64,000 bases of DNA from Mobula hypostoma (lineage: Eukaryota): the NCBI RefSeq assembly GCF_963921235.1, contig NC_086097.1:42100001-42164000 (forward strand). Reading direction: 5' to 3'. Below the pieces are notes generated by a model. It was not told the DNA's origin. It was given only the letters and a program-made list of their open reading frames with translations, and did no database searches. This document shows, one piece after another, positions 2,541 to 61,959 of this stretch; the stretch's first letter is position 1; the number at the start of each line of letters is the position of its first letter. A program made the position numbers and the translations under genes.

Positions 2541-2569
2541 AATTCTGGTGCAATGATCAATGATTCATG

Positions 2570-12791: not shown

Positions 12792-12958
12792 ATAGAACAT
12801 AGAACAGTGGCCCTTTGACCCACAATGTTGTGCCGACCATGTAACCTACTCTAGAAACTGCCTAGAATTTCCCTAACGAATTCCCCTTTATTTTTCTAAG
12901 CTCCATGTACCTATCTAAGAGACTCTTAAAATATCCTATTGTATATGCTTCCAGCACC
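12792..12958 (-). mobile_element. Short CR1 3' tail inserted into the RT of the host CR1
   Basis: Begins TAGAACATAGAAC (tail repeat), resembles 11497-11680 and interrupts the RT frame. Confidence 0.7.
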
Positions 12959-13868: not shown

Positions 13869-14978
13869 AACATGAACTCTGCTATCAACTCTGCTCTTAA
13901 ACGCATCTCCCCCATTTCACGTACATCTGCTCTCACTCCATCCTCCCGCCACCCCACTAGGAATAGGGTTCCCCTGGTCCTCACCTACCACCCCACCAGC
14001 CTCCGGGTCCAACATATTATTCTCCATAACTTCCGCCACCTCCAACGGGATCCCACCACTAAGCACATCTTTCCCTCCCCCCCCCACTGCATTCCGCAGG
14101 GATCGCTCCCTACACAACTCCCTTGTCCATTCGTACCCCCCATCCCTCCCCACTGATCTCCCTCCTGGCACTTATCCTTGTAAGCGCAACAAGTGCTACA
14201 CATGCCCTTACACTTCCTCCCTTACCACCATTCAGGGCCCCAAACAGTCCTTCCAGGTGAGGCAACACTTCACCTGTGAGTCGACTGGGGTGATATCCTG
14301 CGTCCGGTGCTCCCAATGTGGCCTTTTATATATTGGCGAGACCCGACGCAGACTGGGAGACCGCTTTGCTGAACATCTACGCTCTGTCCGCCAGAGAAAG
14401 CAGGATCTCCCAGTGGCCACACATTTTAATTCCACATCCCATTCCCATTCTGACATGTCTATCCATGGCCTCCTCTACTGTAAAGATGAAGCCACACTCA
14501 GGTTGGAGGAACAACACCTTATATTCCGTCTGGGTAGCCTCCAACTTGATGGCATGAACATCGACTTCTCTAACTTCCGCTAAGGCCCCACCTCCCCCTC
14601 ATACCCCATCTGTTACTTATTTTTATGCACACATTCTTTCTCTCACTCTCCTTTTTCTCCCTCTGTCCCTCTGAATATACCTCTTGCCCATCCTCTGGGT
14701 CCCCCCACCTTCTTGTCTTTCTTCCCGGACCTCCTGTCCCATGATCCTCTCGTATCCCCTTTTGCCTATCACCTGTCCAGCTCTTGGCTCTATCCCTCCC
14801 CCTCCTGTCTTCTCCTATCATTTTGGATCTCCCCCTCCCCCTCCAACTTTCAAATCCCTTACCCACTCTTCCTTCAGTTAGTCCTGACGAAGGGTCTCGG
14901 CCTGAAACGTCGACTGCACCTCTTCCTACAGATGCTGCCTGGCCTGCTGCGTTCACCAGCAATTTTGATGTGTGTTGC
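13869..14978 (+). mobile_element. 5'-truncated Penelope-like element (Neptune type): Cys linker, GIY-YIG and terminal repeat
   Basis: GVISCVRCSQCGLLYIGETRRRLGDRFAEH; perfect 13-bp TSD TCCTAACTTGTCT at 13856-13868 and 14979-14991; nearly identical to 55001-56100. Confidence 0.93.
14875..14916 (+). ncRNA. Minimal type I hammerhead ribozyme motif in the Penelope terminus
   Basis: TAGTC-CTGACGA-AGGGTCTCGGCCT-GAAAC-GTC^GACTG: CUGANGA and GAAA boxes, helix I TAGTC/GACTG, GUC triplet, palindromic ACGT in place of helix III. Confidence 0.8.
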
Positions 14979-17200: not shown

Positions 17201-18258
17201 ATAACCATTGTCTGGAAGCAGTCCAGCATATGAGGAAGAACAATACTCCAATGCCACATACTCTCAACTTCACTAAGTGGCAGTAATGAATTAGGAAATT
17301 AGTTCGGCTTTATTAAAACTAAAGGTCTCACAGGCCTTCTAAATTGAAAGCAATAAGACTCTGGCCATTTAGTTGCAGTGAAATAAGAAACCACGGATCC
17401 TCTCTAAGGTATCTCCAATTGGATCGAGGCCCGCAGAGGCAGGAAGAGGAGCTACTATTATTATAGTAATGAAAGAGAACTCTAGGTCTGGCTTGAAACA
17501 GGGAAATAATTTGTGACAGGCTTGGTTATGGGACCCTCATGAAAAATCAGGTTCCTTTTATGAACTGTCAGGAGCATCCCCATTCCAAGTAAGCTTCTGA
17601 TGTGTATGCTTACTTCCCCTGTTCTTACCCTAATGTTCAGTGCCACTAACAAGGATGCTACATACTTGGTGAAGTATCAAATGAAGGTGGAAGCAGATAG
17701 TCCATTCGCAGTGCATTGGGGTAAACTGGATAAATTAGGATAAACTGGATGAGGCATTGTACTGGACTGTCAATATGGTACCATCTCTTTGAAGGATAAC
17801 AGAAGGAAAAGGAGGGAGATGGAATCTAGAAACAAGATTTATCTTCTTTACAAATCCAGTTACAAGAACCAGTAATCACCTGAATCTGGGGCTCAGCGAA
17901 AGGAAGCCTTAAGAGATATCAAATATGATCACTTTGTTCCCTGATAGGTTGTAAACAGTACAAGATGTGAGATTAAGTACATCTTTCACCCGTTGTCACT
18001 AGTGTGATTCTAAGTGCAAATTCAGCAAAGCAGCCATTATCGACCAAAATGGCAAAATTAAGATCATCAACCAATCAATCTTGCTCCAATCACTATATTA
18101 TTACAAGAAGACCCTGGATAGAGTTACAAATAAGAGGAAATCTCCAGCATTTTGCATGTGTGTTGCCTGGATAGGGTTAGCCTCCTCAGCATGAAAATGC
18201 ATTTCAGCAATGCAAGCACTACCTCAAGGAAGCTTCTGATGTGTATGCTTACTTCCCC

Positions 18259-34445: not shown

Positions 34446-34654
34446 CAGTTCAAATCAACAGATAGATAATGTGTGTTAGTATTGGATAAACAAAAGAGAG
34501 AGCAGAGGGTGAAGAAGGTGCTTTGACAACATGGTAAGGTGCACCAGCAGGATGTTAAAAGGATAAAAAGAAAAATGCAGATGACTCTTGCATTATGAGG
34601 TGGTGGTGGGGTTTTGTTCATAGAATTTCTTCCCGATTGTGATTTTCCAGAATA

Positions 34655-34778
34655 TAGATGAAAGAAAAATAGAGGATTACAGGGGAAGGAGGGGTTAGGT
34701 TGATCTTGAAGTAGCTTAAATGTTGGCACATCATAGACTGAAGGATCTGTACTGTGATGTACTGTTCTATGTTCTATG
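34655..34778 (+). mobile_element. CR1 3' tail
   Basis: Ends TGTACTGTTCTATGTTCTATG. Confidence 0.65.
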
Positions 34779-34828
34779 AACCTGTGCATATGTCAAAAAT
34801 GCAAATTGAAAACTATGTTTTCTGCTTA

Positions 34829-35075
34829 AACACGAGGAATTCTGCAGATGCTGGAAATTCAAGCAACACACATCAAAGTTGCTGGTTGAACGCAGCAGGC
34901 CAGGCAGCATCTCTAAGAAGCGGTACAGTCGACGTTTCGGGCCAAGACCCTTCGTCAGGACTAACTGAAGGAAGAGCTAGTAAGAGATTTGAAACGGCCC
35001 GAAACGTCGACTGTACCTCTTCCTAGAGATGCTGCCTGGCCTGCTGCGTTCACCAGCAACTTTGATGTATGTTGC
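34829..35075. mobile_element. 247-bp Penelope-derived mini-element: two inverted termini, non-coding
   Basis: Perfect 14-bp TSD ATGTTTTCTGCTTA (34815-34828, 35076-35089); about 80-bp inverted arms at 34863-34943 and 34996-35075. Confidence 0.88.
34926..34967 (-). ncRNA. Intact minimal hammerhead ribozyme motif
   Basis: Minus: CAGTTAGTC-CTGACGA-AGGGTCTTGGCCC-GAAAC-GTC-GACTG. Confidence 0.82.
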
Positions 35076-35624
35076 ATGTTTTCTGCTTATTTATTTTTAC
35101 CACACAATTTTCATAAGAATGAATTTTTATTCCATATCCCAGATATATTGGTTATGATTTGTAGATTTCATCATGGCGAACTTCCACAAATCAAACCGCT
35201 GTATTATGGAGGCTGGCTGTACTGGAGACAGTACTAGAAACGATGACAAAGAGTCTCAGTTCTGAAACGTTTACTCCATTGTTGTTCGCGCAGACGCTGC
35301 TCTAAGCTAAGTGTTAACTTCAATTTCTGTTTTTATTTCAGATTTTCAGCATCTGCAGGCTTCTTTTCAAAAATTTTCATTGGACATTACAGGAATCCTA
35401 GATGCAAATAAATAAATATTTTGGTGTTGTGTCAGAAAAAAATAGTGCTTGGTTTTGATGATGATATGAATTGCCAATGGAAAATTCAAACAAGTGCAGA
35501 GCTCTGGGGTACAAGGTGGGAACTGGAGGTGTTGGAATAGCTGCTTCAATGGATAATCAATGTACAATGCTCAAATTAGCTGTAATTTTAGAATAGAACA
35601 TACATAGAATAGTACAGCACAGTC

Positions 35625-38452
35625 GAATCTTTGTGGGTGGAGTTAAAAAAATGCAAGGGTTAAAAAAATAATTATGGGAATCATATATAGCCCTCCAAAT
35701 AGTAGCCAGTATGTGGGGTTGAGATTGCAAAGGGAGCTGGAAATGGCATGTAATAAGGATAATGATGCTTCAATATGCAAGGAGATTGGGGAAATTAGGT
35801 CGGCGTTGGATCACAAGAAAGGGAATTTAATAAATGCCTATGAGATGGCTTTTTAGAGCAGCTTGTGCTTGAGCCTTCTTGGGGAATGGTTATCTTAGAT
35901 TGGGTGTTGTATAATAACCCAGATCTCATTATGAAGCTTATTGTAAAGGAACCCGTAGGAGGCAGTGGCCATAATTTGATTAAACTCATAATGCAGTTTG
36001 AGAAGGAGAAGCATAAGTGACATATATCAGTATCAGAATGGAATAAAGAGAATTACAGAAGCATAAGAGAGGAGCTTGCCCAGGTGGATTGGAGGAGGAT
36101 ACTGGCGGGGATGATGGCAGAGCAGAGGTGGCTGAAGTTTCTGGGAATCGTTCATAAATTGCAGAATAGATACGTCCCACAGAAGAAAAAGTTCTCAAAT
36201 AGCAGGGGTAGGCAACCGTGCCTGACAAGGGAAGTTAAGGATTGCATAAAAGCCGAGGAAAGGGCATACAAGATAGTAAAACTGAGTAGGAAGTTGGATG
36301 ATTGGGAAGCTTTTAAAAACCCATTAAAAGGCAACTAAAAAAACTATAAGAAAAGATGAAATATGAGGGCAAATTAGCCAATAATATAAAGCAGGATACC
36401 GAAGTTTTTTTCAATTGTATAAAGAGTAAAAGGGAGGTGAGAGTTGATATTGGACCACTGTAAAATCATGCTGGAGATGTAGTAATGGAGGATAAAGAAA
36501 CAGCAGATGAACTTAATGGGTACTTAGCAGGCCAGGCAGCATCTATGGAAAAGAGTGCAGTTAACATTTCAGGCCGAGACCCTTCAGTAGGACTCCTGCT
36601 AGAGGGATTCAGCCCAAAACACCGACTGTACTCTTTTCCAAAGCTGCTGCCTGGCCTGCTGAGATCCCCCAGCATTTTGTGGGTGCTGCTTGCATTTCTA
36701 GCATCTGCAGATTTTCTCTTGTTTGTTAATGGGTATTTTGCATCTTTCTTCACTGTGAAAGGCACTAGCAGTGTGCCAGAGGTTCATGAGTGTCAGAGAG
36801 CAGAAGTGAGTGCCATTGCTATAACAAAGGAAAAAATGCTAGGCAAACTCAAAGGTCTTAAGGTGGATAAGTGACCTGGACCAGATGGACTACATCCCAG
36901 AGTCCTGAGAGAGATTGCTGAAGGATAACAGATGCATTGGTCATGATCTTTCAAGAATCATTTGATTCTGGCATGGTCCTGGAGGACAAGAAGATTGCAA
37001 AAGTCACTTTACTCTTTAAGAAGGGAGGAAGGCAAAAGGAAGGAAATTATGGGCCGGTTAGCCTAACTCCAGTGGTTGCAAAAGTGTTAGAATCTATTAA
37101 TAAGGAAAAAGTTTCAGGATACTTGGAGACTAAAGGTGAAATAAGTCAATGTCAGCATGATTTCTACAATGAGAAATCTTGCCTGACAAATCTGTTAGAG
37201 TTCTTCGAGGAAGTAACAAGCAGGATGGACAAAGGAGAGGCAGTGGATGTCATTTACTTGGATTTTCAGAAGGTATTTGATAAGGTGCCACAGATAAGGC
37301 TGCTTAACAAGATTATGTCCTATGGTGTTACAGGAAATATAATGGCATGGATAGAGGAATGGCTGACAGGCAGGAGGCAGCGAGTGGGAACAAAGGGGGC
37401 CTTTTCTTGTTGGGTCCCAGTGACAAGTGGAGTTCATCAGGGGGTCAGTATTAGGATCACTACTTTTCATATTGTTTATCAGTGATTTGGATAATGGAAT
37501 TGATGGCTTTCTGGCAAAGTTTGTGGATGATATGAAGATAGGTGGAGGGATAGGTAGTGCTGAGAAAGCAAGATGATTGCAGCAGGACTTAGACAAATTG
37601 GAAGAATGGGCAAAGAATTGGCAGATGGAATACAGTGTTGGGAAATGTATGAGAATGCATTTTGGTAAAAGGAACAATAGTGCAGACTATTATCTAAATG
37701 GGGAGAAGGTTCAAACATCAGAGATGTAGAGGGACTTAGGAGTCCTCGTATAACACTCACAGAAGGTTAATTTACAAGCTGAGTCCGTGATAAAAGAAGG
37801 CAAATGCAATATGGCATTTATTTCAAGGAGAATAGAATTATAGAAGCAAGCAGCTAATGCTGAGGCTTTATAAAACACTTCTTAGGCCACACTTGGAGTA
37901 TTGTCTACAGTTTTGGGCCCCAAATCTCAGAATGGATGTGTTGTCATTGGAGAGTCCAGAGGAGGTTTAGAAGAATGATTCCAGGAATGAAAGGGTTAAC
38001 ATATGAGGAGTGTTTGGCAGCTTTGGGCCTCTATTCACTGAAATTTAAAAGAATGCAAGGGAATCTCCTTGAAACCTACTGAATGTTGAAAGGACTAGAT
38101 AGGATGGATGTGGAGAGGATGCTTCCTCTGGTGAGGGTATCCAGAACTAGAGGGCACAGCCTCAAAATTGAGGGGTGGCCTTTCAGAACGGAGGTAAGGA
38201 GGAATTGTTTTAGCCAGAGAGTAGTGAGTCTGTGGAATGCTGTGACACAAGCTGCAGCGGAAGCCAAGTTTGTGGGTATATTTAAAGTGGAAGTTGATAG
38301 TTTCCTAATCAGTCAGGGCATCAAAGGATATGGCGAGAAGGCAGGTGTATGGGGTTGAGTGGGATCTGGGATCAGCCATGATGGAATGGTGGAGCAGGCT
38401 CGATGGGCTGAATGGCCTAATTCTGCTCCTATGTCCTGTGGTCTTATGGTCT
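35625..38452 (+). mobile_element. CR1 LINE ORF2 (APE end + RT), decayed
   Basis: IIYSPPNS, NYGPVSLT, SCLTNLLEFFEEVT, YLDFQKVFDKVP; GTCTTATGGTCT tail. Confidence 0.9.
36526..36725. mobile_element. 200-bp Penelope-derived mini-element with two inverted degenerate hammerheads
   Basis: TSD TTAATGGGTAYTT (36513-36525, 36726-36738) inside CR1; arms GCAGGCCAGGCAGCA / TGCTGCCTGGCCTGC; tail AGCATCTGCAGATTTTCTCTTGTTTG. Confidence 0.82.
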
Positions 38453-38549
38453 AAACCAATACAATTTCAAAAGTACAATAATGCACATGCTGTCGGGAAT
38501 GCTAGAGCAACTGTTAAAAGTAGTTTCCCTGATATTTGTATTAACACGT

Positions 38550-39080
38550 TGGTGTACAGGTGTACATGTTATTAGGTATGCATGTACACCAGTCTATTAA
38601 TGCAAATATCTAATCAGCTAATCGTGTGGCAGAAACTCAATGCATAAAAGCATGCAGACATGGTCAAGAGGTTCAGTTGTTGTTCAGAACAAATGGGGGA
38701 AGAAATATAATCTAAGTGATGTTGACCATGGAACGATTGTTGGTGCCAGACAGAGTGGTTTGAGAATCTCAGGAACTACAGGTCTCCTCTGATTTTCACG
38801 CACAATAGCCTCCAGAGTTTACAGAGAATGGTGTAAAAAAACAAATAAAATTATCCAGTGAGCAGTAGGTCTGCTGGCAAAAGCTCCTTGTTAATGAGAG
38901 AGGTCAGAGGAGATCAGACAGACTGGTTCAAGCTGACAGGAAGACACCAGTAACTAAAATGACCACGCGTTACAACAGTGGTTTGAGAAAAAGCATCTCT
39001 GAATGCATAACATATCGAACCTTGAAGTGGATGAGCTACAGCAGAATAAGAGCACAAACGTACACTCAGTGGCCATTGAA
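38550..39080 (+). mobile_element. Tc1-like transposon deletion derivative (N-terminal HTH remnant)
   Basis: NLSDVDHGTIVGARQSGLRISGTTGLL*FSRTIASRVYREWC; TIR-like TACACTCAGTGGCCA at 39061. Confidence 0.8.
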
Positions 39081-39796
39081 TTCAGTATATCATTATGGAT
39101 ATTGTTATGTTGATTTTATGTCTTGTGAACTTATAGCTTTCAGAAGTCTGAACTGTGTTTTCTGGTGAGCATTCACTTGATGAGTGTCTTTGGTTCAGCA
39201 GATCATCATTTGAATTTAGTTTTCTTAAGGAAGAAAGACAAACATATTGGTGGAATGCATGCATCTATCTGCTTTGTGTGCCAACTTAGAAGGATAGTTT
39301 TAACAATGGATTAGCTTTAGCAATGCTCAGGGGTCTTACAAAGTACTATTGCAATTTGAATAATCTGCATCCTCACATTGGACGTCAAATTCGGGTTTTG
39401 TTTTACAAATGCCAAGGTTGTCCAACAGCACTTGTAGATTTAAACACAAAGCTGTTTTGGAAATGTTATTTTCTTGCACAATGGGATAGCTGTCAGATCA
39501 ACTATCAAAGAATAACAATAAGAACATTGAGATCTTAGCTTTTTGATATGAGTATTTGAGGAATTTTACAGAATTGTCATTGGAAAATGGTGTAATTTGG
39601 CAGTATGATTTTTGTCCACACTTAAATTGTGATAGCAGTACTAAGCTTCAAATTTCTCCCTTGTCTAGTCCTATCAAGTTGAAATAATCACAAAAAACAG
39701 AATTGAAATGGGGAAAAATGTATAAAAAATGACACATTTTCCAATTTGATATTTATGTTTTATTATTATAAAGACAGGAGACAAGAAATCTATTTA

Positions 39797-40192
39797 GCTA
39801 GGGCTTTACTCTTTGGAGAGAAGGAGGATGAAAGGAGACATGATAGAGGTATACAAGATAATAAGAGGAATAGATAGAGTGGATAGCCAGCGCCTCTTCC
39901 CCAGGGCACCACTGCTCAATACAAGAGGACATGGCTTTAAGGTAAGGGTTGGGAAGTTCAAGGGGGATATTAGAGGAAGGTTTTTTACTCAGAGAATGGT
40001 TGGTGCGTGGAATGCACTGCGTGAGTCAGTGGTGGAGGCAGATACACTAGTGAAGTTTAAGAGACTACTAGACAGGTATATGGAGGAATCTAAGGTGGGG
40101 GCTTATATGGGAGGCCGGGTTTGAGGGTCGGCACAACATTGTGGGTCGAAGGGCCTGTACTGTGCTGTACTATTCTATGTTCTATGTTCTAT
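39797..40192 (+). mobile_element. CR1 3' fragment
   Basis: ERRRMKGDMIEVYKI..FFTQRMVGAWN; (TTCTATG)n tail. Confidence 0.88.
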
Positions 40193-40540
40193 GTTTGTCT
40201 TACCTCTTGATGTGTTGTATGTTTATATATGTCATTCTGCAATTGCAGACTGCTTCAGACCATCCAGTGAAACTGAAATCCAGCCAGGTGATCAAAAGCA
40301 CACATGTCTGCCACAACAGAGGCTTTTAGCCAGGGCTGAAATGGTTGCCACAAGAGGATACAGGTTTAAAGTACAGGAGAGTAGGTACAGAGGAGAAGTC
40401 ATGGGGTAAGTTTTTTACACAGAGTGGTGAGTGCGTGGAATGGGCTGCCGGCGACAGTGGTGGGGGCAGATATGATAGAGTCTTTTAAGAGACTTTTGGA
40501 TAGGTACATGGATCTTAGAAAAATAGAGGGCTATGGGGAA

Positions 40541-41764
40541 TCTTACGCACACGCAAACCTGTAAAAGTATCAGCAGCAATGGAACACACCTGGAGTCTGG
40601 TGTCACTGTTTACAAACCACTATTTTATTAGCAACTACATAATATGGTAACTTAAACCAGGTAAATCAAGAGTTAGGTGTTATGCATATACAGGTGTATA
40701 GATAAAGTTCCCAAACGCATTCGAGCTCAGGTGGCAAGAGTTCAGTCTTACGATGGTATGTAAGAGAGTTCAGTTCAGTCCACAGAGTTGTTATTGTTGT
40801 TATGAGAGAGATATTTGTAATCCAAGGTGAAATCCACAATAGGAGAATAACAAGTAAACAGGTGCCATTGGTCATCCGTCGTCAGCTCCGAATCCACACA
40901 CGAAGTATCACCAACAGTGATCTTCACAGAATATCCTTCCTCACAAGTGGTTACCACAATAGCTTGCCAGAATTCAGCTACAGGTCATCCCAAAGTAGTG
41001 GCCACAGGATACTTAAACCGAATCCATATGTGGGTCATCACCAACAGCAGCTTATCACAAAGGGGACCATCTTCAATGGAAAACTACCACCCAAGCAGGG
41101 GTAGACACACCAGTAGATTCCACAAGGTTACCCCAATCACACAACATGATAGCCACTTATCCAATTCCACGACATTCGAAATAACTCCAAAAGTGATTTG
41201 CCACAGGGGTGCCTTCTTCAGTGAACTACCACACCCAGACAAGGGTAAACACACACGTGCTATTTACACAGGTCTCCCCTCACCAGAGAACCCACTCCTG
41301 TGAATTAACTGTGTGACAATCACATTTTTGTATTCAAATGGAATCAAACTCACCCCTACGGGCTACTTGGAGAGAGTCCAAACAGTGATCTCTTAGTCAC
41401 TAGGTTTCTTCTGTTTCAAACTTTCCTCTCTCATCCTCCCTGCAAACTTCTTCTAGTTGCAACAACTTGTGAGAGTCGTTTATCAATACTCTGGATCGAT
41501 CTCCACTCACCCCTTTGGGCTACTGAAAGTTTAAACCAGCGACCCCCCTGTCACTGGTGGCTTCCCATGATCGAAACCATCTCGACTCTGACCATGTGTC
41601 TCTGTGTGTCTGTGAGAGAATCACCTGACCTTGCTTATTCAAAACAAGCCGCGAACTTGTCTAAACAATCGATTGTCCATCATGTAACTCCTCCTCTCTC
41701 TCTTTCTCTCTAGCAACTCAGACAGTTAGCAGTAGAAAACAGTTGCTTTTCGTAACGCTGTATT

Positions 41765-41810
<46 letters not shown>

Positions 41811-41856
41811 CTTAAAGGCATAGTCTGTAACAAATGAAACTTAAGATCCCATCACA
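40541..41856 (-). mobile_element. Solo LTR of about 1.3 kb (probably Gypsy)
   Basis: 4-bp TSD GGAA (40537-40540, 41857-41860); minus strand starts TGTGATG; AATAAA near the 3' end; internal imperfect repeats; no ORF. Confidence 0.72.
41769..41807. repeat. (TC)n microsatellite
   Basis: Directly visible. Confidence 0.95.
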
Positions 41857-42317
41857 GGAAGTCTAGTAATTTCTAAGGTAGGGACATGTTCGGCACAACT
41901 CGGTGGGCCGAAGGGCCTGTATTGTGCTGTAGGTTTTCTATGTTTCTAACAGGGAAATGTTCTAATCTCTTTATACTCACTTACAACATGGCATCAAAAT
42001 ATTTAACCAACTATGACAGAAAGGATCACAGAAGACATGAACTGTGAAAGCAGAATTCAAGTTAAAGTCCAATACAAACAAGGTATGAATTTAAACATGC
42101 TATACAAATGATGCATAGTGCAAAAGTGAGAGGAATTGGAAGTGGAACATAGACATTGGAGCGCTGGGCATGAAAAGACATCGCAGAAAGCAGGAAAGCT
42201 GTCACTTTGCAACATGGTGGATATTGAAAGAATAAATCGAACGAACATTCTAATGCCAAAAGGCTGGATTTTGTTGTGGGGAATATCTGATGTCAAGCAT
42301 CTTACATTAGACAACAG

Positions 42318-43123
42318 TTTCTATTCTCTCTACACTCATGATTGTGTGGCTAAGCACAGCTCAAACACCATTTATACATTAACCAATGATAGAATCTCAG
42401 ATAGCAACAGGGAGGCGTACAGAAGCTAGATAGATCAGCAGGGTGAGTGATGTCACAACAGCAAATTCGCACTCAACCTCAGCAAGACTAAAAATTGATT
42501 GCAGACTTCAGGGAAAGGAAGTCGAGCAAGCGCACACAAATTCTCATTGAGGAGACAGCAGTGCAAAGACTGAGCACCTTCAAGTTCCGGGGTGTCAACA
42601 GCTGGCCCAACACACTGATGCAATCGCGAAGAAGGCATTCCATTGGCTCTACTTTATTAGGAGATTGAGGAGACTTGTTATACCACCAAAGACTCTGACA
42701 AATGTCTGGAGATGCACAGTGGAGAGCATTCTGACTGGTTGCTTCACAGCCAAGAGTAGCTCCAGTGCACAGGATCGCAAGGCTGCAGAGGATTGCAGAC
42801 TCATCCAGCACCATCACGGCAACAACTTGCCACGGTCACAGACATCTTTCAGAGGCAGTAACTCAGGAGGGCAACATTCATAATGAAGGAGCCTCACCAT
42901 CTTCTTGTGCTACTGTCAGGGAGTCGGACAAGGAGCCTGGAGAACCACACTCAACAATTCTGAAACAGTCCATGAATCCATGAACACTATCTTGTTATTG
43001 CTTTTTTTGCACTATTTTCTTTTTTTTTTTGTAATTGACGATAATTTGCCGCAAAACAACAGATTTCACATCACATAAGCCCATGATGATAACCTGGTAC
43101 TATTTCTGGTTCTGATTCTGATT
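42318..43123 (+). mobile_element. Rex1 3' fragment, decayed
   Basis: YSLYTHDCVAKHSSN, CTVESILTGCFT; (CTGATT)n tail. Confidence 0.8.
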
Positions 43124-43957
43124 CCGAGACCAGGCAATGTCAAAGGCCACTGTCAACTTCATTACCTGTGTCTGGTAGCTCATGCTAACTCCATCACTTT
43201 TGCTGACTTAATTTGTCAGTGTCACATTTCTCACCCATAAGACCATAAGACCCCTTCTCTCCAGTCAGTTAGTCAATACAGGAGTGTCTCATACATCAGT
43301 CATCCCACTGCTGTGTGCAGTATCAGTTCAAACTGGGTTAGAAAAATGGCAACAGTGCTACTTATTTGAAAAATTGAGACCATGCCTGTGATATTGATAT
43401 TTAGTTTTAGGTCAGTGCTCTGTATTTAGTGGAGAGAAGGAATTTGTTGAGACAACCTAGCAGGCGGGTCCGGTGAAGAAGAGCTCTACTATTGAAGCCA
43501 ATGGAAGGAAAAGTTGGTTTTATGGATAATGGCCAATCCAATCTCATTGGTTTAAATATCACCAGCATTGCTGAAAAATTTGCCCAATATTACTGACTGA
43601 TGGATGCTTTTTCATTTCAGTTCTTCTTAAAAAAGGTGGTGAGATTGAACCAGGTGTAACACTTTATATTCCTAACCCTGAAGAATTTTTCAGCACGAGA
43701 GAGAAATCTAGAGCTAAGCACAGGGAAAGCAGCAGTTAAAATCCTTGTACTTGTCCTTGCTTTCCTCCTTTACTTTATGCTTCTGGTCTGTTTTTCTTTT
43801 TATTCTGTTCTAGTATTTCTAACTCATGTCTTCTTACCTACAATAATTTTAACTTAATTTTTAACTTTGCAGTCCACATTGGAAATGAAAATACAAATTA
43901 GAAAAGTTATAGTGCATTGTGTATATAGTGTTTATTCGGTTAAAAGAAGGCATGGAT

Positions 43958-44243
43958 ATTGAATTGACTTTATTACCTACATCCTTCACATACATGAGGA
44001 GTAAAAATCTTCATGTTACGTCTCCATCTAAATGTGCAATGTGCAATCATAGTAATTTATAATAAATAGAACAGTCAATGTAACATAGAAATACATTCAA
44101 ATCAGTGTGAGTTAATCAGTCTGATGGCCTGGTGGAAGAAGCTGTCCTGGAGCCCGTTGGTCCTGGCTTACACGCTGCGGTACCGCTTCCCGGATGGTAG
44201 CAGCTGAAATAGATTGTGGTTGGGGTGACTCAAATCCCCAATG
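43958..44243 (-). mobile_element. Rex1 3' tail fragment
   Basis: Minus strand encodes FQLLPSGKRYRSV..RLQDSFFHQAIRLIN; AATAAA tail. Confidence 0.7.
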
Positions 44244-44695
44244 TGAATAATTCTCCTCTGTAGCATATTGTATCTTTCCCTACATTGTTTATTGCCCTTT
44301 AGTTTTTAAAAGGAACAAATATCTGACCCCTGTTTTAATCTAATCCAGGGGGTTCCAGCTTTTTTTTATGCCATGGATCCCTATAACCAAAGGGTCCATG
44401 GACTCATCTAATCTAAGAATGTTTCCCAGCATCAGCAATTAACTGGGAACTTGATTAAGCTGATGTGCCACCATTAAACCCATTGTTGCAATATACTAAT
44501 TGGCTCACTTTCAGTGGGATCAAAAGTAGCAGCTCTCTTCAGGAGTTCCACTTTAATAACCGTACCTAGATGTTCAAAGTTCAAAATAAACTTAATATCA
44601 AAGTGCAAATATGCCACCATATACAAACATGAGATAAAGTTGTCTACATGTCAGTACCAGTAAATGTATAATATATTATGGATTGTATTTAGTAC

Positions 44696-44840
44696 CGTAC
44701 ACAAAATGCAGGAGGAACTCAGCAGGTCAGGCAGCATCTATGGAAAAGAGTAAACAATTGACATTTCTGACGAAGACCCTTTTTCAGGACTGAGAGGCAT
44801 TGCTTTGGATTTTCAGCATCTGCAGATTTCCTTGAGTTTG
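44696..44840. mobile_element. 145-bp Penelope-derived mini-element
   Basis: TSD TATTTAGTAC (44686-44695, 44841-44850); minus-strand degenerate hammerhead followed by plus-strand tail CAGCATCTGCAGATTTCCTTGAGTTTG. Confidence 0.78.
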
Positions 44841-45314
44841 TATTTAGTACACTGCTTTCAAAATTCAGTTTCATTTAAACATTAGTACTAAGTTTTGGTT
44901 CTTATGTTCTTATGTATATAAATTACTCAACTAAGGATGAAATTCTCAGCAATATTTAGAAAATATTTTAGACATTGTTTTTACTACGCAGTTATAATTT
45001 TGACAACTAACCCTTAGAACAGGTTCATTGCAGGAACACTTTAGACAATACATTATGGATAAATGTTTTAATATGTTTCAGTGTGCATTTGCATCCAGCT
45101 GATCAATTTCAGTGAGATTTCCCCTTGTCATAATTTTGGAGAGAAAAAAATTGTTAAGGTCTTTTGAGAAATGGTTGTTAACATCCCCCCATGGTTTCTG
45201 CTGACATTGTTCTGGAGAATAGGAGAATTTGTGCGTAATCCTCTCCCTTCCCTTCTTGTGTACCCAACCAGGTCATTTTTGACAACTGTCAGGACATTGT
45301 GGAAGGTTTGTGCA

Positions 45315-48294: not shown

Positions 48295-48908
48295 GAAGCA
48301 CTTTTCTTACGGCCAGCACCCTACGGCCCAGCATGATCGGATGAGTCCGGCGAAACTCTGCAATGAGCAAGGAATCCAAGTTAAAACTGGACGGCACCCA
48401 AGGCTTCTCATCTGGGCCATAACCCTGGCTGTTGGCCAGGTACTGCACCCTGTTCACAATGACATGAATCCATTAACCGGTGAACCGTGTACATTGGAAC
48501 ATCTTCCGCCATTCTAGGTTCCAAAGGTGCAGACTCAGGTGGGTCGAGTGGTCTGTAGACAACGGGCTTGATGCAGGACAGATGGAGGTAGATATAATCC
48601 GGAGAGACGGTGGCAGGGGCAGATTTCTGGTGGACAGCCAAACTCTGTCCCCAGGTCAGAGTAGTCTGCTGGTTACCATCAGTGGTTGGCCTGGTGGCAG
48701 CAGGTGCAGTTGGCAGCTAGGATAGTCTCCCCTGCCCTCTTCCAAGCATTCCAGGGTCCTGGCAGATGGGACTTCTACCATTGGCACCTCCATGGGGAAC
48801 AACAGGGGTTGGTGGTCATGAAGCACTACAAAGAGTGCCATACCCATGGTAAAGGTGGGGTGAAGAATATCAGACAGCTAGGCCTAGAGCAGTCACTTCT
48901 TCCAGGGC

Positions 48909-50440
48909 AACATACATAAAATGCTGGAGCAATTCAGCAAGTCAGGCCGCATCTATGGAAATGAATGAACAGTTGGCATTTCAGTCTGAGGCACTTCGTC
49001 AGGACTGGAAAGAAAGGGGGAAGGGGAAGGAGGTCAAGCTAGAAGGTGATAGGTGAAGCCAGGTGGGTGGGAAAGGTAAAGGGCTGGAGAAGAAGGAATC
49101 TGATAGGCAAGGTGAGTGGACCATAGGAGAAAGGGAAGAAGAAAGGACAACGGGGGGAAGAGATAGACAGGTGAGGAGAAGGCACAAGTGGCCAAAGCAG
49201 TAAATAGAAGAAGAAGGAAGAGGGAGGGGGGATAAATTACTGAAGAAATCAATGTTCATGTGATCAGGTTGGAGGATAACTAGACAGAGTATGAGATATT
49301 GTTCCTCCAACCTCAGAGTGGCCTCATTCATGGCAGAAGAGCAGGCCATGGACCAACACGCTGAAACAGGAGTGGGAAAAGGAATTACAATGGTTGGCCA
49401 CCAGGAAATTACTGCTTTTGGCGGATAGAGTGAAGGTGTTCACCAAAGTGGGGCCCCAATTTTACGTAGGCTTTCACCAATGCAGAGGAGGATGCATTGG
49501 GAGCACTGGATACAATGGACAACCCCAACCAATTTGGAGGTGAAGTGTTGCCTCATGTGGACAGACTGTTTGGGGCCCTCAATGGAGCTGAGGGAGAAGT
49601 GGGCAGGAGTAGCATTTCTGCTGTTTGCAGGATAATGTGCAAGGAGGGAGATGAGTGGGGGGCTGGAGCGATTGGACAAGGCAATCAGAGGGAGTGATCC
49701 CTGTGGAAAGCGGAGAATGGAGTGGGGTAGGGAAGTAAAGAGTTGTTTGGTGGTAGGATGCCATTGAAGATGGCAGAGGTTACAGAGAATGATGTGATGG
49801 ATGCAAATGCTGATGTGGTGGTAAGTGAGGACAAACTATCCCTGTTTAGGCAGCAGAAAGATGATGTGAGCGCAGATGTCTGGGAAATGATGGGGCTGAG
49901 GGCAGCATCAATAGTGGAGGAAGGTAAACTGTTCTTTGAAGGAGGAGGACATCTCTGATGACCTGGTGAGGAAAGCTAGGGAACAGCTGAGACAGAGGTG
50001 AAGGGACTGAGAAAGGGAATAACATTTTTACAGGACACAGGGTGGGAGGCAGTATAGTCAAAAAAAGCTGTGGAAATCAGTGGGTTTATAAAATATGTCA
50101 GTAGACAGTTTGTCTCCAGAGATAGAGACAGAGAGAGGTTGAGAGAGAATTGTCAGAAATGTACTAAGGGATTTTAAGGATAGGGTGGAAGTTGGAGGTA
50201 AAGCTGTAGAAATTGATGAGTTCAGCATGGGTGCATGAAGCAACACCAATGCAGTTGTTAACACAGTGCAGCAAGAATTGGGGAGCATTGCCAGGGAAGG
50301 CTTGGAACATGCACAGTTCTGCATAGCCAACAAAAAGGCAGGCAGAATTAGGGCCCATGCGGGTGCCCATGGCTACCCCTTGAGTTTGAAGAAAGTGGGC
50401 GGAGCTATAGGAGAAATTGTTGAGGGTGTGGACCAGTTCT
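48909..50440 (-). mobile_element. Older Penelope-like element (RT 3' half, GIY-YIG, terminus) inserted in the chromovirus integrase
   Basis: HFLQTQGVAMGTRMGP, YKPTDFHS, CIQCSQCILLCIGE, ATLRLEEQYLI; degenerate hammerhead at 48970-49007. Confidence 0.88.
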
Positions 50441-53982: not shown

Positions 53983-55059
53983 AGAACAAAAGGCAAAGGA
54001 CTCCCACTTCTCTGATCTTATCTTGAAACCATCCACCTCTCCAAATCTGCAACATGTTCCCTGACTCCTTGTCTTCAGCCTTTACTTTTAGTCTATAATG
54101 AGCCTTTTGAAAATAGTGAAACATTGAGATCTAATGCAGCACCATAGTCTACTTTTTCTGTTATCCCCTTATAATATTCAATAAGGTTGAACATTATTTT
54201 GCTTTGTGAAATCCACACCATCTATTAAGCATTATATTTTTCATTATTCTCTCCTTTAAAAAAATCCCATTATTCTTTTCTTGCAACTGATTTTACTGCA
54301 TGAAGACTTAATTTTCTGTGGATTGTTTTAGTGTATCACTACATTGCCCAATTAATTTTCTATTTTATGTATATAATAGTTGGAAAAACTGTATAATGCC
54401 AATGTAATATGTATTAACCACCCCTTCATGGAAGATGAAGATACAAAAACATTTTCAGAAGTTCTTGTGACTATATTTCTAATCTGATAAAACTATTGTT
54501 ATTAAAGTGTAATAAAGGTGGATATAGGTCATTAAAAAATGCAGATGAGACAATAATGAATAATAAGGAAATAGAAATTGTTTTAGGAACACTGCATCCA
54601 TTTCCACTGTGATAGAAGTGGTCAAAATACCAAAGATGTAGAGGAATTGATAGTTATTAAATATTAGAAGTTATGGATTTTAATTAATTAAATAATCCTT
54701 TGTTAGCCAGAAAGAGCTACAATTTACCAATCAGTGAACTAAAATCAGTTAAGGACAGTAGAAGTAGACAAATCTAATTGTCTTTGTTCTTGCCAAGAGT
54801 GAAGGAATAGAGGCTGCCATTTTGTGAAGTTGCTCTGTAGCCTCCATTTTGTGAGCTGCCTTGTAAACTGATTTCGCGCTGGAGTAGCTGTTTTAAAGTG
54901 GACACATTGATGCTGCTGATAGTCTGTATAATTAGAGATTATTTTTGAATAAGTTATTTGTTAGGTGTTCTTTGGTACAAACGGACATAGGGAGTCTGTG
55001 ACACACATAAAAGTTGCTGGTGAACGCAGCAGGCCAGGCAGCATCTCTAGGAAGAGGTG

Positions 55060-55101
55060 CAGTCGACATTTCAGGCGGAGTCCCTTCGTCAGGACTAACT
55101 G
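55060..55101 (-). ncRNA. Hammerhead ribozyme motif (slightly mutated)
   Basis: Minus: CAGTTAGTC-CTGACGA-AGGGACTCCGCCT-GAAAT-GTC-GACTG. Confidence 0.65.
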
Positions 55102-55393
55102 AAGGAAGAGTGAGTAAGGGATTTGAAAGTTGGGGGGGGAGGGGGAGATCCAAAATGATAGGAGAAGACAGGAGGGGGAGGGATGGAGCCAGGAGCTGGA
55201 CAGGTGATAGGCAAAAGGGATATGAGAGGATCATGGGACAGGAGGTCCGGGAAGAAAGACAAGGGGGGAGGGGGGGACCCAGAGAATGGGCAAGGGGTAT
55301 ATTCAGAGGGACAGAGGGAGAAAAAGGAGAGTGAGAGAAAGAATGTGTGTATAAAAATAAGTAACAGATGGGGTACGAGGGGAAGGTGGGGCA

Positions 55394-57976
55394 TTAGTGG
55401 AAGTTAGAGAAGTCGATGTTCATACCATCAGGTTGGAGGCTACCCAGACGGAATATAAGGTGTTGTTCCTCCAACCTGAGTGTGGCTTCATCTTTACAGT
55501 AGAGGAGGCCGTGGATAGACATGTCAGAATGGGAATAGGATGTGGAATTAAAATGTGTGGCCACTGGGAGATCCTGCTTTCTCTGGCGGACAGAGCGTAG
55601 GTGTTCAGCAAAGCGGTCTCCCAGTCTGCGTCGGGTCTCGCCAATATATAAAAGGCCACATCGGGAGCATCGGATGCAGTATATCACCCCAGCTGACTCA
55701 CAGGTGAAGTGTTGCCTCACCTGGAAGGACTGTTTGGGGCCCTGAATGGTGGTAAGGGAGGAAGTGTAAGGGCATGTGTAGCACTTGTTCCGCTTACACG
55801 GATAAGTGCCAGGAGGGAGATCAGTGGGGAGGGATGGGGGGTACGAATGGACAAGGGAGTCACGTAGGGAGCGATCCCTGCGGAATGCAGAGAGAGGGGT
55901 GGAGGGAAAGATGTGCTTAGTGGTGGGATCCCGTTGGAGGTGGCGGAATTTACGGAGAATAATATGTTGGACCCGGAGGCTGGTGGGGTGGTAGGTGAGG
56001 ACCAGGGGAACCCTATTCCTAGTGGGGTGGCGGGAGGATGGAGTGAGAGCAGATGTACATGAAATGGGGGAGATGCGTTTAAGAGCAGAGTTGATAGTGG
56101 AGGAAGGGAAGCCCCTTTCTTCAAAAAAGGAAGACATCTCCCTCGTCCTAGAATGAAAAGCCTCATCCTGAGAGCAGATGCGGCGGAGACGGAGGAATTG
56201 CGAGAAGGGGATGGCGTTTTTGCAAGAGACGGGGTGAGAAGAGGAATAGTCCAGATAGCTGTGAGAGTCAGTAGGTTTATAGTAGACATCAGTGGATAAG
56301 CTGTCTCCAGAGACAGAGACAGAAAGATCTGGAAAGGGGAGGGAGGTGTCGGAAATGGACCAGGTAAACTTGAGGGCAGGGTGAAAGTTGGAGGCAAAGT
56401 TAATAAAGTCAACGAGCTCTGCATGCGTGCAGGAAGCAGCGCCAATGCAGTCGTCGATGTAGCGAAGGAAAAGTGGGGGACAGATACAAGAATAGGCACG
56501 GAACATAGATTGTTCCACAAAGCCAACAAAAAGGCAGGCATAGCTAGGACCCATATGGGTGCCCATAGCTACACCTTTAGTTTGGAGGAAGTGGGAGGAG
56601 CCAAAGGAGAAATTATTAAGAGTAAGGACTAATTCCGCTAGACGGAGCAGAGTGGTGGTAGAGGGGAACTGATTAGGTCTGGAATCCAAAAAGAAGCGTA
56701 GAGCTTTGAGACCTTCCTGATGGGGGATGGAAGTATACAGGGACTGGACATCCACGGTGAAAATCAAGCGGTGGGGGCCAGGGAACTTAAAATCATCGAA
56801 AAGTTTAAGAGCGTGAGAAGTGTCACGAACATAGGTAGGAACGGATTGAATAAGGGGGGATAAAATCGTGTCGAGGTATGCAGAAACGAGTTCGGTGGGG
56901 CAGGAGCAAGCTGAGACAATAGGTCGGCCAGGACAGGCAGGTTTGTGGATCTTGAGTAGGAGGTAGAAACGGGAAGTGCGAGGTGTGTGAACTATAAGGC
57001 TGGTAGCAGTGGATGGGAGATCCCCTGAGCGGATAAAGTCGGTGATGGTGTGGGAGACAATGGCCTGGTGCCCCTTAGTGGGGTCACGATCGAGGGGTAA
57101 ATAAGAGGAGGTATCTGCGAGTTGTCGCTGTGCCTCAGCAAGGTAGAGGTCAGTACGCCAGACTACAACAGCACCCCCCCCCCTTATTGGCGGGTTTAAT
57201 AATAAGGTTAGGATTAGTGCAGAGGGAGTGGAGAGCAGAGCGTTCCGAAGGAGTGAGGTTGGAATGGGGACAAGGTGCGGTGAAGTCGAGACGATGAATG
57301 TCCCGTCGGCAGTTAGCAATAAAGAGATCCAGAGCAGGCAGAAGACCAGAGCGGGGTGTCCATGAAGAAGAGGAGGGTTGAAGACGGAGAAGGGGTCATC
57401 AGTGGGAGTGGAAGAGTCCTTGCCGAAGAAGTAGGCTCGGAGACGGAGACGGCGGAAGAAAAGTTCCGCATCATGGCGAACACGGAACTCGCTGAGGTGT
57501 GGGCAAAGGGGGACAAAGGTGAGGCCCTTACTGAGGACAGAGCGTTCTGCCTCCAACAGTTGAAGGTCGGAGGGGATGGTAAAGACCCGGCATGGATGAG
57601 AGCTGGGATCAGAGGGGGGAGCGGGGAGGCTAGGGGTGTCAATGGAGAGGGGAAGGTTGGGGTGAGAGGAAGATGGAGCCTCTGAGGACCCAGGAGCTGA
57701 CGATGGGATCTGAGGGAGACGGGATTGCAGAGTATTGGTGGGGGAATGGGAGACGGGAGTCACAATAGCAGCACATAAAGACCCAGCCTGGAGTTCAAGG
57801 CTGGAATCTTGAGAGCTCGGATCAGAGGGGGGAGAGGGGAGGCTGGGGGTGTCAATGGAGAGGGGAGGGTTGGGGTGAGAGGAAGATGGAGCCTCTGAGG
57901 GCCCAGGAGCTGACGGTGGGATCTGAGGGAGATGGAGTTGCAGAGTGATGCTGGGGGAAGGGGAAACGGGAGTCAC
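55394..57976 (-). CDS. Penelope reverse transcriptase + GIY-YIG endonuclease (860-aa open frame, 5'-truncated, with an out-of-frame internal segment)
   Basis: KIHK..PGRPIVS, DVQSLYTSIP, QTKGVAMG, RYIDD, YYKPTDSHSYL, CKRNKCYTC, VIYCIRC..YIGET..RFAEH. Confidence 0.88.
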   Translation of the reverse strand: MTPVSPSPSITLQLHLPQIPPSAPGPSEAPSSSHPNPPLSIDTPSLPSPPSDPSSQDSSLELQAGSLCAAIVTPVSHSPTNTLQSRLPQIPSSAPGSSEAPSSSHPNLPLSIDTPSLPAPPSDPSSHPCRVFTIPSDLQLLEAERSVLSKGLTFVPLCPHLSEFRVRHDAELFFRRLRLRAYFFGKDSSTPTDDPFSVFNPPLLHGHPALVFCLLWISLLLTADGTFIVSTSPHLVPIPTSLLRNALLSTPSALILTLLLNPPIRGGGAVVVWRTDLYLAEAQRQLADTSSYLPLDRDPTKGHQAIVSHTITDFIRSGDLPSTATSLIVHTPRTSRFYLLLKIHKPACPGRPIVSACSCPTELVSAYLDTILSPLIQSVPTYVRDTSHALKLFDDFKFPGPHRLIFTVDVQSLYTSIPHQEGLKALRFFLDSRPNQFPSTTTLLRLAELVLTLNNFSFGSSHFLQTKGVAMGTHMGPSYACLFVGFVEQSMFRAYSCICPPLFLRYIDDCIGAASCTHAELVDFINFASNFHPALKFTWSISDTSLPFPDLSVSVSGDSLSTDVYYKPTDSHSYLDYSSSHPVSCKNAIPFSQFLRLRRICSQDEAFHSRTREMSSFFEERGFPSSTINSALKRISPISCTSALTPSSRHPTRNRVPLVLTYHPTSLRVQHIILRKFRHLQRDPTTKHIFPSTPLSAFRRDRSLRDSLVHSYPPSLPTDLPPGTYPCKRNKCYTCPYTSSLTTIQGPKQSFQVRQHFTCESAGVIYCIRCSRCGLLYIGETRRRLGDRFAEHLRSVRQRKQDLPVATHFNSTSYSHSDMSIHGLLYCKDEATLRLEEQHLIFRLGSLQPDGMNIDFSNFH

Positions 57977-58020
57977 AATAGCAGCACATAAAGACCCGGC
58001 CTGGAGTTCAAGGCTGGAGT
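57598..58020. repeat. Two tandem copies of a 213-bp (71-codon) Pro/Ser-rich unit
   Basis: GAGAGCT.GGATCAGAGGGGGG at 57598 and 57811; GGGAGTCACAATAGCAGCACATAAAGACCC at 57755 and 57968. Confidence 0.9.
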
Positions 58021-58153
58021 GGGAGTCTGTGTATGACCTGAGTAACTTGAGCCTAGTAACTGGCTAGACTGGTCTGATTTAGAACAAAGATATATTAATT
58101 ACAATTTGTCACTTACAAGAAGGGCAATAAAGTGATGCTGGCTTGGATCAGAG

Positions 58154-61137: not shown

Positions 61138-61959
61138 CGCTGGCTACTAAGAATTACAAGCTACAAATCAGTGAATTGGAATGAGTCAAGCACAAGAGAA
61201 GTAAACGAACCAATTGTCTTTTTTTTGCCAAAGATTGAAGGAAATGGAGGCTTCTATTTTGTGAAGCAGCTCTGTAGCCTCCATTTTGTGAGCTGTCTTG
61301 GGAACTGATTTTGCTCAGGATTAGCTTTAAAGTGGGTACAAAGATGCTCCTCATAATCTGCTGAACTAGAGATAATTTCTGAATAAGAAGTTGTTTATTT
61401 ATGAAGTGTTTTTTCATATGATAGAACATGCAGATTTATGACTAGTTGAATCTACGTCTGGCCTGAGTAACTTGAGCCTAATAACTGGCAGGTCTGCTCT
61501 GATTTAGAACAAAGAGTCATTAACTACAAGTTGTTACTTAAGAGAAGGGCAATAAATTAATGCTGGCTTGGACCAGAACCAATGGGAGGCTGACACACGC
61601 TAGCCAGATAGGCCAGAGCCAACGAGATTGAAACACAACATTTGAGCTAATAAGGAGCGTATAAAAGTGAGAGCAGTGAGACTCTGGAGACCAGCCATCT
61701 CGGATGCAGATGGTTCCACGTCGGACACATGGAGATCACATCAGGACCACAAGGAATGCCTGGCCAGCATAAACTCATTTTCCTGGGCATTTTCTAATCC
61801 TTGACCATTTACAGATGATCAGGGAAAACTAGTATTTGTGCACACAGTTAGTCCATTTGTGAATTCACATCCTAGTTAGTTGAGACAATAAAGGTACTTG
61901 TCAGTAAATATAGATTCTTTCTGTGCCTAACTGATCATTAGGGGTTAATCCTTGAGACA
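61138..61959 (+). repeat. 3' LTR
   Basis: Colinear with 54701-55000 plus 58032-58529; ends in ACA. Confidence 0.85.

What the first reader, a model, noticed from the sequence alone, without database searches (positions are those of the whole stretch)
34829..44840. Tiny non-coding, TSD-flanked, hammerhead-bearing mini-elements made of inverted Penelope termini
Seen: three separate insertions of 247 bp (34829-35075), 200 bp (36526-36725) and 145 bp (44696-44840). Each joins a minus-strand terminal piece to a plus-strand piece, contains CTGANGA...GAAA hammerhead-derived sequence and the AGCATCTGCAG tail, and has its own 10-14 bp TSD. Known: Penelope termini carry minimal hammerheads, Penelope insertions often have inverted partial terminal repeats, and short non-autonomous ribozyme retroelements (retrozymes) exist. 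Inference: these are either extreme truncation-inversion products or a retrozyme-like family mobilised by the Penelope RT. Their differing decay implies repeated generation over time.
Basis: partly seen in the sequence, partly recalled or inferred. Interest (0 to 1): 0.7.

Follow-up and report, generated by a model that had tools for sequence, protein, structure and literature searches.

The report
Tiny two-armed Penelope retroelement insertions
The three small inserts are real, but they are the shortest form of the known back-to-back insertion pattern of Penelope-like jumping genes, each made separately, and not a self-amplifying ribozyme element.

Summary
The three inserts (247, 200, 145 bp) and their 10-14 bp target-site duplications (TSDs) are real. 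Each is a head-to-head pair of 5'-truncated 3' ends of a Neptune-type Penelope-like element (PLE) whose longer copies lie in the window, with the ~35-bp tail on one arm only. This inverted-copy-plus-tail layout is published, and two RT start sites flanking the tail explain it. A missed 39-bp insert and 1.1-kb and 3.0-kb copies extend the size series.

The retrozyme reading fails. There are no tandem hammerheads, only the 247-bp insert keeps an intact core, and its own hairpin buries that core. The three junctions differ. In run contigs the 247-bp junction is crossed at about single-copy depth, among 543 listed junction types with none dominant (15 seen).

One lead remains. Eight of the 15 best-supported junctions, and three arms in the window, stop at or within a few bases of the hammerhead's 5' edge, which could mark a fixed RNA 5' end. 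Subfamily divergence and CT microhomology at that spot confound it. Short or circular RNA was untestable. The scan has reported this pattern before, in this genome and in others.

The parts
34829..34994 (-). E1 tail-bearing arm: 166 bp of PLE 3' end; tail about 34829-34862; 5' truncation 32 nt upstream of hammerhead helix I
   Evidence: 91% identical to 14848-14979
34927..34962 (-). Minimal type-I hammerhead motif, intact core; the only intact one in the three inserts
34995..35075 (+). E1 tail-less arm: 81 bp, starts 18 nt inside the hammerhead and lacks the CUGANGA box
   Evidence: 94% identical to 14898-14978; 3 mismatches and 1 indel against the other arm
34815..34828 (+). E1 TSD, left copy, 14 bp; right copy 35076-35089, exact
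36526..36593 (-). E2 tail-less arm, older subfamily; inner end at the 5' edge of helix I; outer end about 30 nt short of the usual tail-less end
36594..36725 (+). E2 tail-bearing arm, starting about 2 nt into helix I; E2 is a palindrome centred on 36593 with decayed cores
   Evidence: (75-nt arms, 1 nt apart, 75% complementary)
36513..36525 (+). E2 TSD, left copy, 13 bp with 1 mismatch (right copy 36726-36738), inside a CR1-type LINE
44696..44793 (-). E3 tail-less arm, older subfamily; inner end 1-7 nt upstream of helix I; core decayed
   Evidence: 80% identical to 48913-49007
44794..44840 (+). E3 short arm: the tail plus about 6 nt; barely overlaps the other arm
44686..44695 (+). E3 TSD, left copy, 10 bp (13 bp counting shared bases); right copy 44841-44850
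18127..18165 (.).
   Evidence: stub matches tail ends 15 of 17; 0.014% of window positions sampled match as well
13869..14978 (+). 1.1-kb 5'-truncated PLE copy (endonuclease part and 3' end, no tail), 13-bp TSD, possible 7-bp inverted tail stub at 13869-13875
   Evidence: stub weak: 1.6% of positions sampled match as well
55001..58020 (-). 3.0-kb PLE copy with an open RT + GIY-YIG frame and a CX4CxxC linker (Neptune/Nematis type); 11-bp TSD; no tail; same subfamily as the E1 arms
48907..50439 (-). Older-subfamily PLE remnant, about 70% identical to the 55-kb copy; no confident TSD

Best explanation
Each insert is one abortive integration of an abundant endonuclease-bearing, Neptune-type Penelope-like element. 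The GIY-YIG domain nicks both target strands 10-14 bp apart (inferred from the TSDs; double nicking shown in vitro for an anole PLE). Each 3'-OH primes reverse transcription inside PLE RNA, one at the far end of the ~35-nt tail and one at its near end (inferred here; two start sites bounding the tail shown in vitro). Both cDNAs stop early, after 7-170 nt in the small inserts. Their inner ends are joined head-to-head, often through 2-4 nt of microhomology, and gap filling makes the TSD (inferred). The junction is made anew at each event, so the inserts are dead-on-arrival scraps and not templates of a family. The hammerhead is a passenger of the PLE terminal region. In E3 and E4 the arms barely overlap, so the second arm cannot be a fold-back copy of the first and must have been primed on RNA.
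For: Arms match the 3' ends of coding PLE copies in the window at 91-94% (E1) and about 80% (E2, E3). The 55-kb copy has RT and GIY-YIG motifs and a CX4CxxC linker. The tail is on exactly one arm in 4 of 4 two-armed inserts, or 5 of 5 counting the weak 7-bp stub. Outer ends fall on two fixed points: tail-less ends within about 4 nt in 6 of 7 cases, tail ends within 2 nt. Six TSD-bounded inserts form a series of 39, 145, 200, 247, 1110 and 3020 bp; depth at 34993, next to the E1 junction, is 9.7 in X1 against 14-19 in unique flank bins and 0.45-11 million in arm bins; 543 junction types are listed, and the largest in a DNA run has depth 211. Literature: two RT start sites bound the tail, both strands are nicked and extended, and hammerhead cleavage is not needed (PMC11167929). 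An inverted 5'-truncated copy with a one-sided tail and 8-10 bp TSDs is standard (PMC8557442; PMC3846280). Opposite-strand hammerhead pairs 100-700 bp apart were already noted in Schistosoma (PMC4209133).
Against: No genome was held, so copies were not collected one by one. I saw 15 of 543 junction rows and 12 of 369 between-letter rows, and the tool left some joints uncounted in X1 and X5. Some junction types recur (34962 to 35001 in 6 contigs of X1 and 5 of X5; depths up to 211, about 15 times single copy), so small clonal sets are not excluded. Depth beside the E1 junction in X5 is 68, several times its flank depth of 10-15. Arm ends are not random: 8 of 15 top junctions stop at 34960-34962. 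In vitro, the start site did not differ between strands (PMC11167929), so the one-tail-per-insert rule is not explained by that work. Both Pfam scores of the 55-kb frame fall below the curated cut-offs (25.1 vs 29.6 and 22.5 vs 22.6).
Confidence: 0.85

Rival explanations
1. A retrozyme-like non-autonomous family: the mini-element is transcribed, self-cleaved, circularised and re-inserted by PLE RT, so copies share a junction.
For: Non-coding, TSD-flanked and derived from a hammerhead-bearing PLE end; animal retrozymes are proposed to be pLTR derivatives (bioRxiv 10.64898/2026.07.22.740005). Some junction types recur in several contigs.
Against: Retrozymes are head-to-tail tandem units with a hammerhead in each (PMC7229834). 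Here the arms are head-to-head, no insert has two cores on one strand, and none of 19 tandem-repeat rows in the window is a hammerhead unit. E1 RNA folds into one long hairpin (-164.8 kcal/mol); helix I pair probability is 0.00 in the whole element against 0.63-0.67 in the arm alone. The three junctions differ, and E1's is at single-copy depth in X1.
Confidence: 0.04
2. Fold-back (self-priming): one cDNA is made, its 3' end folds back and copies itself, and the endonuclease resolves the hairpin at the near end of the tail, giving the tail-less arm.
For: E2 is a palindrome with 1 nt between arms. E1's short arm lies within the range of its long arm, and both arms of each insert belong to the same subfamily. 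Palindromic junctions were read as self-priming in a rotifer (PMC3846280). One listed joint uses the 4-nt helix I complement as microhomology.
Against: It cannot make E3, E4 or the 1.1-kb copy, whose arms hardly overlap. E1's junction is blunt. Three cDNA ends folded as DNA did not form the helix I mirror hairpin.
Confidence: 0.2
3. The inserts began as longer head-to-head insertions and shrank later by deletion of the unstable inverted repeat.
For: E2's tail-less arm lacks about 30 nt at its outer end. Instability of long inverted repeats is recalled general knowledge, not from a call.
Against: TSDs directly abut the arms. The least decayed insert (E1) is already short and is probably present at the same site in organism B. 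Heavy 5' truncation at insertion is the described norm for PLEs.
Confidence: 0.08

Closest known systems
Complex inverted insertions of endonuclease-positive PLEs with a one-sided 30-40 bp tail (Craig et al. 2021, PMC8557442; Pen2a_Av and Pen2_Av of Adineta vaga, PMC3846280; passages read)
   Same: Inverted 5'-truncated copy at the 5' end, tail at one end only, head-to-head orientation, one TSD around the whole unit, palindromic junctions in some copies.
   Different: Here both arms are cut down to the terminal 17-170 bp, so no coding sequence remains; TSDs are 10-14 bp against 8-10 bp; the host is probably a cartilaginous fish.
Poseidon_Ac of Anolis carolinensis in vitro (Frangieh et al. 2024, PMC11167929; parts 1-2 of 4 read)
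   Same: Two internal RT start sites that bound the tail; both strands nicked and extended; hammerhead upstream of the start sites and dispensable for insertion.
   Different: Different clade: the partner here has a CX4CxxC linker, which Penelope/Poseidon lacks. In PAc the ORF starts inside the hammerhead, and I found no such coding match here. No strand preference for the two sites in vitro.
Minimal type-I hammerheads of metazoan PLEs (Cervera and De la Pena 2014, PMC4209133; parts 1-2 of 4 read)
   Same: Short helix I, palindromic minimal helix III, mostly lone motifs on truncated PLEs; pairs on opposite strands 100-700 bp apart already reported; in D. virilis the intron end maps to the 5' end of helix I.
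   Different: Only 1 of the 6 arms keeps an intact core; a recurrent arm endpoint at the helix I edge is not mentioned in the parts read.
Non-LTR retrozymes of animals (PMC7229834, passages; bioRxiv 10.64898/2026.07.22.740005, parts 1-3 of 5)
   Same: Short, non-coding, related to PLE terminal repeats, large TSDs.
   Different: Retrozymes are head-to-tail tandem repeats with a hammerhead per unit and give monomeric linear and circular RNA; these inserts are single head-to-head pairs with unique junctions.
L1 twin priming (recalled, from no call)
   Same: A second nick primes an inverted piece; the two cDNAs are joined by microhomology within one TSD.
   Different: L1 primes at poly(A) and at a variable internal site; here both outer ends are fixed sites about 35 nt apart.

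Membership tests
EN+ PLE inverted insertion (truncated) | Sequence derives from the terminal repeat of a PLE with RT and C-terminal GIY-YIG | tested here: met
   Pfam scores below the curated cut-offs but catalytic motifs present; 245 homologues at E<=1e-30 among 8000 candidates scored
EN+ PLE inverted insertion (truncated) | Inverted 5'-truncated copy, head-to-head | tested here: met
   3 of 3 inserts, plus E4
EN+ PLE inverted insertion (truncated) | 30-40 bp tail at one end only | tested here: met
   about 34-36 bp tail on one arm in 4 of 4
EN+ PLE inverted insertion (truncated) | Single variable-length TSD around the unit | tested here: met
   10-14 bp; empty-site equivalent for E2
Neptune/Nematis clades | CX2-5CxxC linker upstream of GIY-YIG, with two Cys inside GIY-YIG | tested here: met
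   CKRNKCYTC and GVIYCIRCSRCGLLYIG in the 55-kb frame; definition
Neptune/Nematis clades | RT phylogeny with reference elements, to separate Neptune from Nematis | not tested
   no named reference set was in hand
Non-LTR retrozyme | At least two consecutive head-to-tail units, each with a complete hammerhead | tested here: not met
Non-LTR retrozyme | Hammerhead able to fold in the element RNA | tested here: not met
   cores broken in 5 of 6 arms; helix I probability 0.00 in whole E1 (computed)
Non-LTR retrozyme | Many dispersed copies of the same unit | tested here: not met
Non-LTR retrozyme | Monomeric linear and circular RNA | not testable with these tools
   no holder on record as RNA; only contigs were served

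The most novel reading that the evidence does not exclude
Many arms are run-off cDNAs that reach a fixed 5' end of the PLE template RNA at the first base of hammerhead helix I. That end would be a transcription start (the site fits YYANWYY) or a 3' splice acceptor (pyrimidine tract plus YAG, where the D. virilis intron also ends). The thousands of mini-inserts would then be 'strong-stop'-like products of about 100 and 135 nt, made in a coupled reaction that always uses one tail site per nick. The genome would be an archive that maps the PLE template and tests the dimer model of PLE integration.
Probability: 0.3. Interest if true: 0.45.

Novelty: new member of a known kind. Interest (0 to 1): 0.18.

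Why it matters
Mostly it does not: this is the published PLE insertion layout at its smallest. It matters for annotation, because such 40-250 bp hairpins can be mistaken for MITEs, microRNA precursors (a sub-threshold Rfam MIR8562 hit lies on E1) or retrozymes. The PLE integration steps after priming are described as not yet validated (PMC11167929). A genome with a very large number of these scraps could test, by counting alone, whether the two nicks use different start sites and where the template RNA begins.

Tried and rejected
Whole-genome census: no genome is held. Collection scans for more copies found nothing: viral contigs 0, metagenome contigs 0 by DNA pattern, and 0 confirmed of 128 pattern matches by protein.

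RNA: no RNA holder listed. Two runs guessed to be RNA gave contigs on the repeat arms; the E1 flank bins had no cover there, which says nothing about expression.

Rfam: no match at gathering score in the window. The MIR8562 hit on E1 (45 bits against 211) only reflects the hairpin.

Arms starting at the hammerhead cleavage site: none of the six arms does, and none of the 15 listed joints has that coordinate. One between-letter row (34962 to 35018) can be read as starting there through helix I microhomology.

A cDNA hairpin protecting the helix I edge: not formed in 3 of 3 DNA folds.

Tail as the start of the ORF: tblastn of 120 homologues against four terminal stretches gave only weak hits (best E 0.007), so this is not shown.

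In one search the 'no full core' lines for the 14-kb and 55-kb copies came from my off-by-one slices; one search shows both motifs.

Literature searches that found no paper on these inserts in cartilaginous fish: (listings only). Searches gave the papers used. The library lacks most subscription papers. I opened no supplements, and those of the bioRxiv preprint are closed; Fig. S2 of PMC11167929 and the preprint's tables may bear on end positions.
Full report
OBSERVATION. E1 (34829-35075) has an exact 14-bp TSD, E2 (36526-36725) has 10 bp exact or 13 bp with one mismatch, and E3 (44696-44840) has 10 bp, or 13 bp with three ambiguous bases. Exact repeats of 10 or 13 bp arise in 0.1% and 0.04% of 5000 matched random zones. 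E2 sits in a CR1-type LINE, and a second copy of that LINE in the window carries the duplicated word once. The tail motif occurs once per insert. The hammerhead claim is overstated. An intact motif is found at three places in the window: 14880-14915, 34927-34962 and 55061-55096. Only the second lies in a mini-insert. E2 has no CTGANGA on either strand, and E3's lies on the strand opposite its decayed hammerhead.

WHAT THE PIECES ARE. All arms align to the 3' ends of longer Penelope-like copies in the window: 13869-14978 (+), 55001-58020 (-) and an older one at 48907-50439 (-). The 55-kb copy keeps an open frame with RT motifs, a GIY-YIG domain with two internal cysteines and a CX4CxxC linker. 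Both Pfam scores are below the curated cut-offs. That linker marks Neptune and Nematis and is absent from Penelope/Poseidon (PMC8557442, passages); I built no tree. The best named protein relatives are from Chiloscyllium punctatum at 61-64% identity, so the host is probably a cartilaginous fish (inference). E1 arms are 91-94% identical to the young copy. E2 and E3 carry older-subfamily signatures, matched between the two arms of E2.

ANATOMY. In each insert the PLE 3' ends point outward and the 5'-truncated ends meet in the middle. Outer ends fall on two fixed points about 35 nt apart, with and without the tail, and each insert has one of each. E2's tail-less arm starts about 30 nt further in. 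Counted from the first base of helix I, the inner ends are about -32/+18 (E1), 0/+2 (E2) and -1 to -7 / about +93 (E3), so no junction is shared. The same layout appears in a 39-bp insert at 18127-18165 (17-bp inverted tail end, ~24-bp tail-less end, 14-bp TSD with one mismatch). It may also appear in the 1.1-kb copy, as a weak 7-bp stub with a 13-bp TSD. The 3.0-kb copy has an 11-bp TSD and no second arm. Six TSD-bounded inserts thus run from 39 to 3020 bp. Two further remnants (48907-50439 and about 35240-35370) had no convincing TSD and are left out of that count.

ARE JUNCTIONS SHARED? No genome was held, so I laid contigs of four of the 23 listed runs on 34480-35230. X1 may be the source sample. 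In X1, 85,600 contigs were laid. Unique flank bins have depth 14-19 and arm bins 0.45-11 million; these are summed depths and not copy numbers. Depth at 34993 is 9.7. Two listed pieces that end at 34994 already sum to more than that, so I read the figure as counting only contigs that continue across the junction (inference). On that reading E1's junction is single-copy. In X5 (organism B) the figure is 68 against flanks of 10-15; one contig of depth 9.3 differs there, and another runs from 30 letters inside E1 into the right flank, one letter short of the tool's bridging rule. E1 is therefore probably shared with a species whose flanks differ at 11 of 296 and 7 of 185 letters. The joint table lists 543 types, of which I saw 15; some joints went uncounted. 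The largest in a DNA run has depth 211, and several recur in 2-6 contigs. No dominant junction is visible, but small recurrences exist.

RETROZYME TEST. Animal retrozymes are head-to-tail repeats with a hammerhead in each unit (PMC7229834, passages; bioRxiv 10.64898/2026.07.22.740005, parts 1-3 of 5). None of 19 tandem-repeat rows here is such a unit, and no insert has two cores on one strand. E1 RNA folds into one long hairpin. Helix I has pair probability 0.00 in the whole element against 0.63-0.67 in the arm alone. Short or circular RNA could not be tested.

MECHANISM. Shown here: the TSDs, the two fixed outer ends, one tail per insert, variable inner ends and PLE origin. Shown elsewhere: an anole PLE protein nicks and extends both strands, starts RT at two internal sites that bound the tail, is predicted to be a dimer, and does not need hammerhead cleavage (PMC11167929, parts 1-2 of 4). 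Inferred: each nick primes at one of the two sites, both cDNAs abort early, and their ends are joined, often by 2-4 nt of microhomology. Nine of ten junction forms at 34960-34962 can be read with CT or GACT overlap (my reading); E1's own junction is blunt. E3 and E4, with arms that barely overlap, need two primings on RNA. Fold-back remains possible for E1 and E2.

THE REMAINING LEAD. Eight of the 15 best-supported joints have one side at 34960-34962, the first bases of helix I. Both arms of E2 end there, and E3's long arm ends within 1-7 nt. The letters after these joints do not continue either subfamily's upstream sequence. The site fits an initiator consensus (recalled; 1.1% of window positions match) and follows a pyrimidine tract and YAG (0.2% of positions, but the region is pyrimidine-rich anyway). 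In D. virilis the Penelope intron ends at the 5' end of helix I (PMC4209133), 46 + 75 bp after the start site (PMC2377424, passages and part 2 of 4). Against it: young and old subfamilies diverge at exactly this base, joints also pile up at two other divergence points (34872-3 and 34911-2, three rows each), and the site ties for first in 2-nt microhomologies. If joints could only fall on three or four such points, 8 of 15 has p = 0.09 or 0.02. The hot spot is suggestive and not shown.

COMPARISON AND VERDICT. An adjacent inverted 5'-truncated copy, a one-sided 30-40 bp tail and a TSD are standard for endonuclease-bearing PLEs (PMC8557442; PMC3846280; PMC8969392; passages only). Opposite-strand hammerhead pairs 100-700 bp apart were noted in 2014 (PMC4209133). 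I found no paper on these inserts in cartilaginous fish. Earlier reports of this scan describe the same pattern in this genome and in two others; they are unchecked notes and not support. Verdict: real, ordinary, a new member of a known kind. Interest 0.18. The fixed-RNA-end reading has probability 0.3 and would merit 0.45.

Noticed in passing
window 18113-18179: A 39-bp two-armed PLE micro-insert with a 14-bp TSD (one mismatch), the smallest of the series.
   Followed up: yes
window 13869-13875: Seven bases between the left TSD and the 1.1-kb PLE copy match the inverted tail end 6 of 7; possibly a minimal second arm.
   Followed up: partly
window 57597-58018: A 213-bp in-frame tandem duplication (92% match) in the Pro/Ser-rich N-terminal part of the PLE frame, starting at the 5' truncation point.
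   Followed up: no
window 35240-35370: A much older PLE-type 3' end (decayed hammerhead region plus tail motif) 165 bp right of E1; no TSD found.
   Followed up: partly
window 25299-25907: A 609-bp element with 191-bp terminal inverted repeats (91% complementary) and internal sub-repeats, like a MITE; related motifs near 25000 and 26280.
   Followed up: no
window 34740-34791: A ~50-bp stretch left of E1 with very high contig depth in all four runs: a fragment of another abundant repeat, not identified.
   Followed up: no
window 50681-51205: Integrase H2C2 zinc-binding match (Pfam E 9e-9): a decayed LTR-retrotransposon fragment beside the old PLE remnant.
   Followed up: no
window 58021-58060 and 61448-61485: A 38-bp sequence beside the 55-kb PLE recurs at 61.5 kb (84%); probably another repeat.
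   Followed up: no
window 279-3623, 4343-4786, 12078-13639, 21032-21583, 36000-37700: Several decayed non-LTR retrotransposon frames with RT matches; the window is dominated by repeats.
   Followed up: no
run X16, joint 34872 to 34996: One contig of depth 522 in a run guessed to be RNA carries a different two-armed junction, readable with a GGCC overlap; perhaps a mini-insert inside an abundant host transcript.
   Followed up: no
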